Below, piece after piece: positions 1-58,603 of a DNA stretch of 64,000 bases. A program made the position numbers and the translations under genes. Location of the stretch: positions 75,392,001 to 75,456,000 of the forward strand of contig OX597819.1 of NCBI GenBank assembly GCA_951406725.2, given 5' to 3'. This stretch comes from Octopus vulgaris. Its lineage: Eukaryota. A model generated the notes under the pieces. It worked only from the letters and a program-made list of their open reading frames with translations, made no database searches and was not told the origin of the DNA. The stretch's first letter is position 1; every line of letters begins with the position of its first letter.

Positions 1-143
1 AAATACAGCGCCATAAGACTCGCCACGTCGCTTTTGCCCTGCAGTCTCGCCACCAGCCTGATTTTCTGAATCCAGGCCACTACATCGCCTTCGCCGTTAA
101 AAGGTCTGACAACGTCACTGGCGATCCTAATTTTTGCAGACAT
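1..143 (-). CDS. gag: N-terminus of a Ty3/Gypsy gag, running off the window edge
   Basis: Reverse strand from ATG at 143 reads MSAKIRIASDVVRPFNGEGDVVAWIQKIRLVARLQGKSDVASLMALY, a typical Gypsy gag start; lies directly downstream of the LTR at 189-468. Confidence 0.7.
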   Translation of the reverse strand, partial: MSAKIRIASDVVRPFNGEGDVVAWIQKIRLVARLQGKSDVASLMALY

Positions 144-188
144 CGTGTTGAAAAAAAATGTGAATGTTTACGAACTTCCGAAATAGCT

Positions 189-468
189 TGTAGTGAGTGT
201 GTGCGATTTGAATATAGAGGCACCTACCTTCTCTTCGTGGTGATGGAGATCCTCCAGAGATGGCTGGTCCTTCCTCACAGCCCTACCCGAACACTAACAA
301 TAGCAGCTGCTAGCCCCAAACCCTTTAGCGACTTCCTCGCACGTCTTGTCGCCAGCACGACCCACGTTGGAAAGGTCAACTTCCGCCCCCTGCGCACGCT
401 TGACGGCTGACCCCTTCCGCTTGCCCCAGCTTCCGGTCAACGCACCCCGCTGCTGACGTCATCCCACA
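189..468 (-). mobile_element. 5' LTR of a Gypsy element inserted into a PLE RT
   Basis: Minus strand starts TGTGG (468) and ends CTACA (189); followed by a degenerate PBS-like AGCTATTTCGGAAGT and the gag start; interrupts the PLE RT exactly after YSRYI. Confidence 0.65.
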
Positions 469-2314
469 GATGTAACGAGAGTACATTGCTAAGTGGATGT
501 TACGGGTTGCTAGGCACTGTATAAAATGTCTGTCCCACCATACCATGAAGAGGTTTGCAACGTCACCGGCGATCCCTACTCCAAATAGCACTGCCTTTCG
601 TCTGCTTATACAGTTTGTTGTCAAACTTTAAAATATGTGTTTTAAGTGTAATTCTCAGGCTGACACCGATAGCATGTGCGATGGTAGTTCTAATGTGTGC
701 ATTTGAAGGTGGGTAGTCCGGCTTCATCCACCCCTGCCAGCGCTCACAGTGAGTCTTTCTGTATGCTGAGGTAATGGTAGGTGGTCTACCTCGTTTGTTA
801 CGGGTGGGACAAGTATACAGAAGGTCATTGTGCGTCAGGTATTCATTGGTACACGTTAGGGCCAGGAAGAGCCCTAGTTCATATACATCCACATTTTTAA
901 ATATCATATTGCTCTCACTAATTATTTCTATACATTTGTCGATAGCAAAGTCTACATCGATGGAGGGGTATAGTGATACCACATCCATGCTACCTACGAT
1001 GTGGTTCCTGAGGTCACACGTGTTGTTGCATTTGCGGATCCTGCTAAGGAGGTCCTCAGTACTGTCACATACATCCGCAGATAGCTCTATTAATGGTCGT
1101 AGGAATTGTGAGAGAAAATATGATATTTTGTGGTTGTTTGCATTGTTGGCACCACAAACGGGTCGGGTGGGTGGCCCAAGTATATGATCCATGTGGCTCT
1201 TATGATCTTTGCGAAGGCCATATAGGGGTGGGATTTCATTGTTGGTGGTTAAGAAGTTGTTTGCTGTGCGTTTCTCCGACTGGAGAATGATACTCCACAT
1301 CCCCATGTGAGCATTAATGATTTTTTCGTTTTTGATGTATTCGAGTGTTGTAGTTTCTGTCATGTCTCTGATGTGTGGTTGCATGTTTGAAATGTAATTA
1401 GATATGTTGTCAACAGACATTCTACCTGACTTGTCAGTTGGGAAGCATACAATCTCTCTGTTTTTGATACGATTTTTTAATTTGTTAAGGCCTTTCTTAA
1501 TTTTGGTGTCAAGACCGTGGGTCTTATTTATTGATCGTTCTTGTATATGCCTTTGGGTGTAATTAGAGAAAGCTGATAGAAGCTTGGATTTAGTAAGGGT
1601 AAACTTTGCTTCCAAAGCAGCGTCGGTATAGGGTGGCATGCATACTCTTTTGTTGAAGGGTAAGTTGGTAGGGTAGACACTTTTCATGTCAAATGACATG
1701 TCACGTTTATCATAGAAACAACGTATGGAATGGTTATAGTCAGACATGTATTGAGTGTCAGGATTTTGGTTGTGGTTAAAGTGTGTTCTCCATCTAAGTT
1801 TGGTGAAGCATTTTTCAATGTCAGATAGTATTGATATCTTACTAACCTTATTATACGTGGCGAACTTTGGAGGGAGTTCTAAGGCCGCGAGTTCATCAGT
1901 ATCCATTTGTACTCCTCCGTACACTCTTACGTTTCTTGTTAGCTGGTCATCATCTACTGGTTTGTCATTCATAGAGATCCCATCAATCGATTCAGTTTTG
2001 TCAAACTGTTAAGTTGTTGGCTGGTTGTATGGTATTTGTATCGTCCATGTTAGTTTCTCTTCAAAGTGTTGTACGCACCTGTTCCATACGGAGTTACATT
2101 CACAACGGAGTAGTTCTTTTAACTGTTTCATTTCTTGATTATTAAGTAAGTTCTTCACTTTTGAGAGGGCCTCTCGCTTTTCCTTTTCTTTAATGGCAAG
2201 GTGTATGTATAGCTCGGACTTCAGGTTCGTCATTAAAATATGTTTTAGTCTCGACGCTTGTCTCTTCTTTAGGTTTAGTGCTTTGACTGTATTGTAAATC
2301 CTTTTTGGGTACAT
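469..2314 (-). pseudogene. Penelope-like element reverse transcriptase, disrupted and cut at the YIDD motif by the Gypsy LTR
   Basis: ORFs 2009-2314 and 563-1972 are in frame across one TAA. Motifs: LPPKF, PTDKSG, YGLRKDHK, RPVCG, SMDVVSLYPSI, then after a frameshift AIGVGIAGDVANLFM...YSRYI. Confidence 0.85.
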
Positions 2315-2359
2315 ATATTATATATATACATGTATGTATATATATATATATACATGCAT

Positions 2360-3514
2360 ATATATAGAGAATACCAAACGAGTTCCCTATGGATACCGTA
2401 TTTATTACGAGTGGCTTGTAAACGTATCTAACGAGCGAAAGCGAGTTAGATACGTTTACAAGCCACGAGTTGTAATAAATACGGTATCCATAGGGAATGA
2501 GTTTGGTATTTTATTTATTACACACGAATAAACGACCATATTTTATTAACCCAATAACTAAATTCTTCACATTGTGTTGAAGCGCGCATGAATACAGCTT
2601 GATTTCACGTCAGTGATGTCACAATGTGTAACTGTAAAAGATGTCATGCCGCAGGAAGATAGTCCGACTTTATAGCGCTAAGTTTTCACAGAATGTCACA
2701 AAGTTCACTTTTGTTGATAGATTCAATTGGACGCATGTCGCCATTTGTCGCCATGAAAGCAAACAATCGTTTAACATCATAGTTTGTTTTCCGAAGAGTG
2801 TTTTTATTTTGATTACCTTGAACGAATTTGTCTATTCCAGAATGATCATGCCTCGGTTGAAATTCAAGTTCATTATTGCTCTCATCAAAGAAATCGTCAC
2901 GTAGAAGTTTGTTGTACACCTCATCAGGGATGTTAGATCTAGGGTTCGATGACAATCCACTCGTCGATGACACTGTTTCAGGTACCTTTGTTAACCTGTA
3001 TCCAGCAACATGTCGAACTTGGCCAGTATTGATCTTCACTTTGAACATTCAGTATGTTCCAAGAGGTTGAACAACGGATAACACTCTTCCCCCATCTTTA
3101 CCATCAATCTTAACAAAATCATTCACCTTGATATCGACAACAGTAGCCATCTTGTTGATAGATCTACCTGCACTGCAAGAGTATCAACGAGCAGACGAAA
3201 TATGTCGTGATCTTTTTGGCAACAAAAAATTGAATTACCACCAGAAATATTTATATTTTATGTGTATATGACTTTAAGTGATATCTGGTATAAAAAAGAT
3301 AGTATGTTTGTTTAATTACATGGCTACATTCTACCTGCTCGTGAAAGTAATGAATGAAGTTTAGTTGTAACTTATGAATGACAAAAGTAGTGCCGTCACT
3401 GTGACCTCGGGTCATCACCATGGATTGACCAATCAGAAGCAGCGCTCGCAGTATCTGACATATGTTAGATACCAAAAATATCTCAGTGTTCTCACTCACA
3501 TGTGTGTAATAAAT
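2360..3514 (-). mobile_element. Non-autonomous Crypton-like (DUF3504/ZMYM-type tyrosine recombinase) element with terminal hairpin
   Basis: ORF 2686-3048 contains FVQGNQNKNTLRKTNYDVKRLFAF...RPIESINKSELCDIL, resembling the N-terminal part of Crypton-type recombinases; catalytic part absent; 13-bp inverted repeat ATTTATTACACAC at 2513-2525 and 3502-3514; flanked by (TA)n. Confidence 0.6.
2370..2510 (+). repeat. About 140-bp hairpin with a GC-GAAA-GC apex
   Basis: Arms AATACCAAAC...TATCTAAC and GTTAGATA...GTTTGGTATT are reverse complements apart from GA/GA mismatches and a small bulge. Confidence 0.95.
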
Positions 3515-56964: not shown

Positions 56965-57020
56965 GCTTGCAACACCTAGATTTCCCAAGTGGTCACCCGT
57001 CTAAGTACTAACCAGGCTTG
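56965..57020 (-). pseudogene. 5S rRNA-derived fragment (3' half)
   Basis: Reverse strand GCCTGGTTAGTACTTAGACGGGTGACCACTTGGGAAATCTAGGTGTTGCAAGC matches the metazoan 5S intermediate element, box C and 3' end. Confidence 0.75.
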
Positions 57021-57521
57021 ACAAATGATATACTGGCGATACACGTGCGTGTGAGCGCGCGTGCGTGCGTGTGTGTGTATGTGTGTGTGTGTGTGTGTGT
57101 GTGTGTTTAAGCCTGTGTACCTACACCCATATATGTATGTGTGTGTGTCTTTTACCTGTATTTACGTCCCCATAACTAGCAGTTCGGCAAAAGAGAACGA
57201 TAGAATAAGTCCCAGCTTAAAAAAAGAAAACTTACTGGTCGATTCATTCGACTAAAACTTCTCCAAGGTGGTGCCCCAATATGGGCTGCAGTGTAATGAC
57301 TGAAACAAGTAAAAGATATACATACATACATGCAAAGGTGTGTGTGTGTGTATGTATAAACACATACATACACACACACACACACATATATATATACATG
57401 CACACACTCATATATATATATAGTTAATCCAAACAAGAAAACACAAAAAAAACACAACAACGCGAGGACGTGGAACAAATATAGTATTATTGGACGCTCA
57501 GGAAAGAAGGGAAGAAGGAGG

Positions 57522-57556
57522 GTTTAACGTTTCGAGCGGAGCTCTTCGTCGGAAAC
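57522..57556 (-). ncRNA. Minimal hammerhead-like motif with U4C core (CCGACGA)
   Basis: gttt CCGACGA agagc-tcc-gctc GAAA cg TT aaac. Confidence 0.55.
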
Positions 57557-57645
57557 ATAGGAGAAGGAAAGATCCAGAGAAGGGAAGACAGAGGAAAAAA
57601 ATCGCCAACGGTACACGCAAGGTCACACACACACACATATGCATA

Positions 57646-58603
57646 CAAGGCCCCTCCCTCCAAAAAAACAAAACAGAACCCATAAAATTTTTATTAAATC
57701 CTACTAAGGTCCTGGCAAATTTCAAGAAATTTGCTGGACTTAAACTTCGGTCTGTGTACGATCATTCGCTTTACATAAAAGTCATGTTCTTTTTAAAATA
57801 TGCTCCAAATGGAGTGCGCGGCGTTGGAAGCACACTTGCAAACGTCGGGCAAAATTGTCAATTACTCAAACACATTCCCCTTTGGGGATTTCCTTGATTT
57901 CTGCTGTGATTGCTGCCTACAGTTCACCAATCATTTGATGGTTGTTCTGGTAAACATTATCCTTGAGATACACCCACAGATAAAAATTTGGTGGGGTCAA
58001 GTCCGGTGAATGCGATGCCCACTCAACGTCACACTTCCTGCTGATCAGTCTCTCCTGAAATCGCTCTCTCAGCCAGGCTAGGAAGTCATCTGATGCGTTA
58101 GTGGGTGACCCCGTCTTGCTGCAACCACTGTTAATCTCGATCTATTCCACTGCGTCGTCCCAATGATGCCCAAAACCTCCTCAGCACTGCCACATAGCGC
58201 TCCATGTTCACCGTTTGAGCTTCCAGATTTTCGTCTTCGAACCAATATGAGCCGATGATGCCATATTTAGAGATTGCTACCCATGCCGTGCACTTTGCAC
58301 AGTCCCATACTCACAGAACTTTTGAACCCAGTCAAAAATTTTGCTTCTTGATGGAGCATGACGACACCGAAACTGTCTCTGAAAATTTGCTTGCACTGCA
58401 GTTTATAATTTGTTGGTGAAATAGGACTCCAAGCAAAATGTCTTTTCCTTGGTTGGCCAAGACATGTTGGGGTAAACTATTGTTCCAATCTTTCATGCAC
58501 AAAGTCGACTTGTATACCCTGGAAAAGAAAAGAAGTAATATTAAAATTAACGGTTTCATTCAAAGATTTGTGGGTTCTGTTTTTTTTTGGGGGGGTCACC
58601 CTG
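57646..58603 (-). mobile_element. Internally deleted Tc1/mariner-superfamily element
   Basis: Degenerate TIRs CAGGGTGACCCCCCCAAAAAAAAACAGAACCC with TA flanks; WLQQDG, SHSPDLTPPNFYLWVYLKDNVY. Confidence 0.8.

What the first reader, a model, noticed from the sequence alone, without database searches (positions are those of the whole stretch)
1..58603. Extreme strand bias of unrelated TEs: candidate unistrand (flamenco-like) piRNA cluster transcribed from the plus strand
Seen: of 19 independent orientable coding insertions, 18 are on the minus strand: 2 Gypsy, 7 PLE insertions (tandem copies 3/4 counted once), Tx1, 2 Dong-like, HERO, Crypton-like, hAT, pogo, mariner and Tc1-like. Only the PLE at 3.6-5.6 kb is plus. 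A fair-coin two-sided probability is 40/2^19, about 8e-5, though nested insertions are not fully independent. Positions 1-48.8 kb are essentially all TE, young and old. The plus-strand hammerheads inside the dense block all look crippled (12615 mismatched stems, 21597 U4C core, 45628 lacks CUGANGA), whereas the minus-strand ones are intact, as expected if a long plus transcript must not self-cleave. Known: Drosophila flamenco and similar loci trap TEs antisense to their transcript. Alternative: an intron of a large plus-strand gene that purges sense insertions.
Basis: partly seen in the sequence, partly recalled or inferred. Interest (0 to 1): 0.75.

Follow-up and report, generated by a model that had tools for sequence, protein, structure and literature searches.

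The report
Antisense transposon trap behind octopus sororin
In an octopus genome, a 70,000-base pile of jumping genes of many unrelated kinds, 20 of 22 facing backwards, starts just behind a likely sororin (cell-division) gene and is probably read through from that gene to make transposon-silencing small RNAs, which have not yet been shown.

Summary
The strand bias is real: 18 of 19 coding insertions in the window are on the minus strand. The dense block actually runs from 21.2 kb left of the window to about 48.9 kb. It holds 22 insertions (20 minus, 2 plus; P=1.2e-4) with 66% coding cover. Neighbours of 20 other copies show 29 same and 31 opposite, at 15% cover. The block is not a coding intron: it starts 2.5 kb behind the stop codon of a plus-strand sororin-like gene. 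Contigs from four probable RNA runs cover its far end. Three bridge a locus-specific junction, just before a plus-strand AATAAA at 49595. This is the layout of read-through piRNA clusters (mouse piC-DoGs, mosquito core clusters). It differs from flamenco proper, which is Gypsy-specific with its own promoter. Not shown: piRNAs, RNA strand, and a continuous transcript. The hammerhead argument adds nothing. Pogo, mariner and Tc1 (52-58 kb) lie outside the block. The scan already reported similar loci in this genome (e1-8671949, e1-8662857) and in other animals. Verdict: a good but unproven new member of a known kind.

The parts
1..48900 (-). In-window part of the dense TE block. It continues 21.2 kb to the left of the window and starts 2.5 kb behind the stop codon of a plus-strand sororin-like gene (G000:C6:75350974-75368305); see the Full report section for those parts
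1..460 (-). Right end and LTR of a Gypsy-type element that begins 3.7 kb left of the window; LTRs 99.3% identical
566..2317 (-). PLE
   Evidence: label by motif
2689..3048 (-). Crypton fragment
3938..5494 (+). Broken PLE; plus-strand exception
6009..6983 (-). Old PLE remnant (weak, 46 bits)
7671..9165 (-). Tx1-like LINE
9421..11905 (-). PLE with GIY-YIG
12967..17979 (-). PLE with terminal repeats 97.8% identical
18173..20723 (-). Dong/R4-like LINE plus a second related fragment at 20310-20723
21862..24490 (-). HERO-like LINE 3' part with tandem repeats
25030..28615 (-). PLE with hammerheads in both pLTRs (cores at 25176, 28419)
29040..38835 (-). PLE (hammerheads at 29336, 38635) interrupted by a Gypsy
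30761..36511 (-). Gypsy, gag-pol only, LTRs 99.3% identical; family has many 95-97% identical open copies elsewhere
38885..45896 (-). Tandem PLE pair (99.3% identical; hammerheads at 39024, 42701) with an inverted pLTR at 45628-45861 cut before the core; young family
46025..48150 (-). hAT transposon lacking the ~760-bp 5' end that most other copies keep
46151..49579 (.). Stretch covered by contigs of probable RNA runs; 3 of 4 runs bridge the locus-specific junction at 48150
48956..49070 (.). Inverted-repeat hairpin (z=-16) with A>G differences at 49033-49034 in RNA contigs
49595..49600 (+). AATAAA with upstream TGTA motifs and a T-rich downstream tract; candidate distal poly(A) signal, the only AATAAA on + in 48.8-53 kb
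   Evidence: motif reading recalled
49600..53000 (.). CpG-decayed flank like the gene body, ending near 53 kb
   Evidence: 24 CpG lost here against 2
52470..58402 (-). Pogo, mariner and Tc1-like remnants; minus strand, but outside the dense block

Best explanation
A 70-kb pile of mostly young transposons, 20 of 22 antisense, lies directly behind a likely sororin gene and probably works as a read-through piRNA source: polymerase from that gene would run on through the pile to a predicted poly(A) site near 49.6 kb, and the antisense RNA would be cut into silencing piRNAs. Shown: orientation, density, position behind the stop codon, young active families, and contigs of probable RNA runs over the locus-specific far end. 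Inferred: that the RNA is plus-strand, that it starts at the sororin promoter and crosses the whole block, that the block grew inside the gene's old 3' region, that antisense insertions are kept and sense ones purged, and that piRNAs are made.
For: Orientation: 20 of 22 insertions minus, P=1.2e-4; 14 of 16 after collapsing related families, P=0.004; 43.2 of 45.7 kb coding bases minus. Controls: neighbours within 10 kb of 20 other PLE or Gypsy copies give 29 same and 31 opposite at 15% cover, after dropping hits from the focal element itself (Fisher P=4e-4). The right flank at 64-354 kb gives 22 plus and 11 minus at 11% cover. Two further 100-kb regions give 15:9 and 9:4 at low density. Bias exceeds the roughly 2:1 of human intragenic LTRs (PMC3517506 passages; P=0.009). 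Position: stop codon at -23695, block starts at -21.2 kb, same strand as the inferred transcript. RNA: contigs of 2865 nt (11 differences), 2612 nt (8) and 347 nt (2) bridge the hAT junction at 48150 in runs X1, X5 and X8. DNA right of the junction is at most 88% identical elsewhere, and 49.1-49.9 kb found no other match. Mosquito read-through clusters show their RNA-seq signal at the distal end (bioRxiv 2022.08.22.504762 passages). A>G at two adjacent stem positions of a hairpin fits editing of a plus-strand RNA (weak). CpG decay marks the gene body and resumes at 49.6-53 kb but not beyond, and octopus methylates gene bodies rather than TEs (PMC9476566 passages). Duplicated segments inside the block differ by CpG transitions at 3.5% against 0.36% for other transitions. 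Slug piRNA clusters are mainly uni-stranded over dense opposite-strand TEs (PMC11615739 passages).
Against: No small-RNA data at all. The runs are only guessed to be RNA, contigs give no strand, and no separate silent stretch was laid, so DNA carry-over is not formally excluded. RNA was laid only on 45.7-57.3 kb; the block interior and the sororin 3' end are untested. X13's long contig follows full-length hAT copies elsewhere, and X1's last contig leaves the window sequence at 49545. Five A(A/T)TAAA hexamers lie between the stop codon and the block, and plus-strand AATAAA are not clearly depleted inside it. CpG-loss asymmetry is not significant inside the block (4:9, 48:46, 75:54). The hAT CpG excess is P=0.09, and the in-block duplicate test has no matched control (the Gypsy LTR control failed). 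A>G changes could be alleles. Two sense insertions are tolerated, one near the 5' end. Most elements are long or near-intact rather than fragmented. The sororin call is below the Pfam cut-off. P-values ignore the genome-wide choice of windows.
Confidence: 0.55

Rival explanations
1. The region is transcribed as a long 3' extension or 3'-UTR intron of the sororin-like gene, and selection only removes sense insertions; no piRNA role.
For: Explains orientation, RNA and CpG pattern without small RNAs. Antisense bias in genes is general (PMC3517506 passages). A non-coding terminal exon after the block cannot be excluded.
Against: The bias (10:1) exceeds the strongest human intragenic bias (P=0.009) and a CpG-poor, probably genic control here (15:9; P=0.04). 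Purging alone does not explain 66% cover against 9-20% elsewhere.
Confidence: 0.25
2. A harmless nested pile-up in which orientation comes from target-site preference, local duplication and chance; the RNA at the right end is unrelated.
For: Many junctions sit at (TA)n tracts. Some pieces are related or duplicated. The scan covers tens of thousands of windows. An unchecked scan note reports an oriented, promoter-seeking Tx1 family in this genome (e1-8670043).
Against: (TA)n is palindromic. LTR, LINE, PLE, Helitron, Crypton and hAT elements integrate by unrelated mechanisms yet agree. 14 of 16 remain after collapsing. Controls show no co-orientation (29:31), although they are neighbours rather than nested stacks.
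Confidence: 0.12
3. A unistrand piRNA cluster with its own promoter near -21 kb, as flamenco has, independent of the upstream gene.
For: Candidate proximal poly(A) signals precede the block. Flam-like clusters are canonical transcription units (PMC10643416 passages).
Against: The 2.5-kb gap is CpG-poor and SINE-rich, like gene body rather than promoter, and the CpG-poor domain continues on the far side of the block.
Confidence: 0.08

Closest known systems
piC-DoG, mammalian piRNA clusters downstream of genes (Zim2, TMEM181; PMC11615739, passages read)
   Same: Dense antisense TE block directly behind a host gene, tens of kb long, ending at a new distal poly(A) site; host coding sequence untouched.
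   Different: Mollusc rather than mammal; dominated by Penelope elements plus LINEs, Gypsy, Helitron, Crypton and hAT; no piRNA or read-through transcript shown.
Mosquito core piRNA clusters made by read-through (bioRxiv 10.1101/2022.08.22.504762, passages read)
   Same: Starts right behind an upstream gene in the same orientation; RNA signal at the distal end.
   Different: Cargo is transposons rather than non-retroviral viral inserts; dependence on the upstream gene untested.
Drosophila flamenco and flam-like clusters (PMC10643416, passages read)
   Same: Long, TE-dense, strongly antisense.
   Different: Those are specific for env-bearing Gypsy and have their own promoter. Here 3 of 22 insertions are Gypsy and the complete one at 30.8-36.5 kb has no room for env.
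Antisense Tirant insertions in host 3' UTRs (PMC13226689, abstract and outline only)
   Same: Host-gene transcription through antisense TE sequence as a piRNA trigger; a plausible first step for this locus.
   Different: Single insertions rather than a 70-kb accumulation.
Uni-strand clusters of slugs (Arion, PMC11615739; Deroceras, PMC12506671; passages read)
   Same: Molluscan precedent for one-strand piRNA output over dense opposite-strand TEs.
   Different: No link to read-through in the passages I read; gastropods, not cephalopods.

Membership tests
Read-through unistrand piRNA cluster (piC-DoG / mosquito core type) | Begins directly behind a host gene in the same orientation | tested here: met
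   Stop at -23695, block from -21.2 kb; expression of the gene itself not measured
Read-through unistrand piRNA cluster (piC-DoG / mosquito core type) | Densely packed TEs antisense to the host transcript | tested here: met
   20 of 22, 66% cover; controls 29:31 at 15%
Read-through unistrand piRNA cluster (piC-DoG / mosquito core type) | Polyadenylated RNA ending at a distal site | tested here: inconclusive
   Locus-specific contigs in probable RNA runs and a plus-strand AATAAA at 49595; no strand or end from contigs
Read-through unistrand piRNA cluster (piC-DoG / mosquito core type) | Continuous transcript from the host's last exon through the block | not tested
   RNA was laid only on 45.7-57.3 kb
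Read-through unistrand piRNA cluster (piC-DoG / mosquito core type) | One-strand, 1U-biased, phased piRNAs | not testable with these tools
   No raw small-RNA run among the 24 listed
flamenco / flam-like cluster | Long TE-dense locus with antisense bias | tested here: met
flamenco / flam-like cluster | Selective enrichment for env-bearing Gypsy | tested here: not met
   3 of 22 Gypsy; PLEs dominate; about 550 bp between integrase and LTR in the complete element
flamenco / flam-like cluster | Own promoter; expression in somatic follicle cells | not testable with these tools
   No chromatin or tissue data; the gap before the block is CpG-poor
Intronic antisense TE bias | Host exons on both sides | tested here: not met
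   The adjacent gene's coding sequence is complete before the block; no host-like ORF noticed to +354 kb by eye; small or non-coding exons not excluded
Intronic antisense TE bias | Moderate bias of about 2:1 or less | tested here: not met
   10:1; P=0.009 against 2:1
Sororin (CDCA5) | Conserved extreme C-terminal Sororin motif | tested here: inconclusive
   PF25220 E=0.0022, 18.3 bits against cut-off 27.4; present in 3 of 5 scanned proteins, absent from the 2 alternatively spliced isoforms; no PDB match

The most novel reading that the evidence does not exclude
The block grew inside the old 3' end of the sororin gene, so a cell-division gene now makes a 73-kb antisense archive of nearly every active transposon class. 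Octopus, which barely methylates its transposons, would then rely on a set of such gene-tail traps, tying piRNA supply to dividing germ and stem cells.
Probability: 0.25. Interest if true: 0.72.

Novelty: new member of a known kind. Interest (0 to 1): 0.5.

Why it matters
I found no described cephalopod piRNA cluster in the listings of four searches (one search listed 30 of 86 papers, one search listed 12 of 15). One paper sequenced O. bimaculoides small RNAs (PMC12479628, passages); its supplements were not opened and may list clusters. Octopus TEs are active and largely unmethylated, so how they are restrained is open. This locus gives exact junctions, a candidate driver gene and a candidate end for a direct test. 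If confirmed, it would extend read-through cluster formation from mammals and mosquitoes to molluscs, with a much broader cargo (Penelope, Helitron, Crypton, hAT) than flamenco.

Tried and rejected
Rfam found no hammerhead or relevant RNA, only microsatellite hits. The homolog search of exon 2 among longer proteins found nothing; the representative search found it. The Atlas gave no result, and there was no PDB match. No run was on record as RNA ('no RNA holder listed'). In one search, depth fell to about 0-2 at 49.6-50.0, 50.3-50.7 and 53.1-53.8 kb in all four runs; missing cover proves nothing and is not counted as evidence. Depth was not used to rank parts. The hAT as a domesticated single-copy gene was rejected (about 25 long copies at 96-99%, and the window copy lacks its 5' end). 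Joints come from SINEs, not splicing (my reading). Suspected sister blocks at C29:27.43-27.53 Mb and C20:30.63-30.73 Mb are not blocks. The Gypsy LTR control for CpG decay failed (0 informative pairs of 10). The hammerhead-crippling argument and AATAAA depletion were not significant. The automatic count also gave 20:2 but with a different make-up (one spurious Merlin piece, no Crypton); the manual list is the one used.
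Full report
Setting. The window is G000:C6:75392001-75456000 in a 2.8-Gb genome. The neighbouring gene's exons match P0006, named by its source as an Octopus vulgaris predicted protein, with relatives in O. sinensis and Argonauta. Negative coordinates below lie left of the window (genome position = 75392000 + coordinate). 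I fetched 100 kb to the left and 290 kb to the right.

Parts left of the window. Sororin-like gene, plus strand: coding exons at -41026..-39905, -36793..-35528, -32396..-32328 and -23778..-23695. Then a 2.5-kb CpG-poor flank with three AATAAA and two ATTAAA, ending in a (TA)n tract. Then the block: L1/Tx1-like 5' part -21171..-20003 (minus), Merlin/IS1595 -16889..-15969 (plus), Gypsy fragment -16111..-13467 (minus), HERO/R2-like LINE -13442..-9127 (minus), Helitron -7174..-5381 (minus), PLE -4709..-4005 (minus) and a Gypsy-type element -3728..460 (minus).

Observation. To guard against a library biased to minus elements, I scanned plus-strand ORFs directly: 150 of 241 and part of the rest. I also built the tblastn library from ORFs of both strands in flanks and controls. 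Only one further plus element appeared, the Merlin.

Extent. The dense block runs from -21.2 kb to about 48.9 kb and holds 22 insertions, 20 minus (P=1.2e-4; 14 of 16 after collapsing related families, P=0.004). Coding TE sequence covers 66% of it, 95% of that on the minus strand. Pogo, mariner and Tc1 at 52-58 kb lie in ordinary flank (7% cover). The cargo is young: both Gypsy LTR pairs are 99.3% identical, and the PLE, Gypsy and hAT families have many 95-99% identical copies elsewhere.

Controls. Ten kb on each side of 10 PLE and 10 Gypsy copies elsewhere held 29 co-oriented and 31 opposite elements at 15% cover, after I dropped PLE-class hits at the inner edge that belong to the focal element. 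The right flank at 64-354 kb gave 22 plus and 11 minus at 11% cover. Two suspected sister regions gave 15:9 and 9:4 at about 20% and 16% cover. The locus is thus exceptional in both density and bias. I could not compute a genome-wide false-discovery rate.

Context. A clathrin heavy-chain gene and then the four-coding-exon gene lie upstream on the plus strand. The latter ends in a Sororin_C-like motif (E=0.0022, below cut-off) that is conserved in three aligned proteins. Its stop codon is 2.5 kb before the block, so the block is not a coding intron of it. I noticed no host-like ORF to +354 kb, by eye only. CpG is depleted over the genes up to -21 kb and again at 49-52.5 kb, but not beyond 53 kb. 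Repeats in 49.6-53 kb lost 24 CpGs against 2 relative to outside copies, like the gene bodies (33:10 and 15:1), whereas 53-64 kb gave 6:4. Octopus methylates gene bodies and hardly TEs (PMC9476566, passages). I infer that the block grew inside the gene's old 3' region. Inside the block the signal is mixed: asymmetry is not significant; in-block duplicates show CpG transitions at 3.5% against 0.36% but lack a control; and the first tandem PLE copy lost 9 CpGs against 1 in its nearest copy.

RNA. Four probable RNA runs from four studies were laid on 45701-57300. The window's hAT lacks the 5' end that most other copies keep, and the DNA beyond 48150 is at most 88% identical elsewhere. Contigs of X1, X5 and X8 bridge that junction at over 99% identity. 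X13's long contig follows other hAT copies, but X13 has short pieces at 48.3-49.2 kb. Contigs reach 49579 in DNA with no other match, just before the only plus-strand AATAAA in 48.8-53 kb (49595). A>G differences at 49033-49034 fall in a long hairpin and would fit editing of a plus-strand RNA, but may be alleles. Limits: run type is guessed, there is no strand, no separate silent control was laid, and there are no data for the block interior or the gene's 3' end.

Hammerheads. Six complete cores are on the minus strand, as expected for minus-strand PLEs. The plus-strand cases are one near-complete ribozyme (12618), one inverted pLTR cut before the core (45628; the same truncation occurs in 2 of 7 control copies), and one motif I could not fold (21597). 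This adds no support.

Mechanism. Most likely, RNA polymerase II from the sororin-like gene passes the proximal poly(A) signals and reads about 73 kb to the distal site. Antisense insertions are then copied as antisense RNA and enter primary piRNA processing, so they are kept, while sense insertions that would terminate the RNA or express the element are lost (confidence 0.55). The anatomy is shown; transcript continuity, strand and piRNA output are inferred. Rivals: transcription with purging only (0.25), an oriented or chance pile-up (0.12), and a cluster with its own promoter (0.08).

Comparison. It works like mammalian piC-DoGs and mosquito read-through clusters (passages read). Slugs give a molluscan precedent for uni-strand clusters, and mollusc PIWI and piRNA expression is described as ubiquitous (PMC6128900, abstract start and passages). 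It fails the Gypsy/env criterion of flam-like clusters. Membership in any piRNA-cluster class remains unproven without small RNAs. PMC11148194 on sororin conservation was seen only as a search listing.

Novelty. No cephalopod cluster turned up in my searches. The scan's own unchecked notes already report similar loci in this genome and in other animals; I did not count them as support. Verdict: a new member of a known kind, candidate only; interest 0.5.

Noticed in passing
G000:C6:75350974-75368305 (L005-L003, left of the window): The gene annotated as uncharacterised (LOC115213237-like) looks like cephalopod sororin. The two O. sinensis isoforms listed use a different splice donor and lose the Sororin_C-like tail, which may be a mis-annotation.
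   Followed up: partly
L003:1109-4332 (minus): A near-intact RTE-like LINE (956-aa open frame) sits antisense in the gene's last intron.
   Followed up: no
window 25176, 28419, 29336, 38635, 39024, 42701 (minus): PLE pLTR hammerheads with an unusually long stem II region (about 55 nt) and a short stem III around a palindromic loop; Rfam missed them.
   Followed up: partly
L081-L100 (hAT copies): CpG decay among 20 near-identical hAT copies varies widely (0 to 8 of 40 sites), which may report genic versus intergenic location.
   Followed up: no
L144:653-2404, L145:618-2258: A Crypton family with at least 25 matches and open frames up to 583 aa exists in this genome.
   Followed up: partly
L008-L005 (77 to 46 kb left of the window): The stretch between the clathrin and sororin-like genes is also CpG-decayed (77:16), suggesting further transcription or an unrecognised gene or long UTR there.
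   Followed up: no
L031-L035 (264 to 310 kb from the window start): Several Dong/R4-like LINEs lie mostly on the plus strand in the right-hand gene-poor flank.
   Followed up: no
L073:6945-8408 (minus): A 488-aa open frame with no Pfam match, next to a Gypsy control copy.
   Followed up: no
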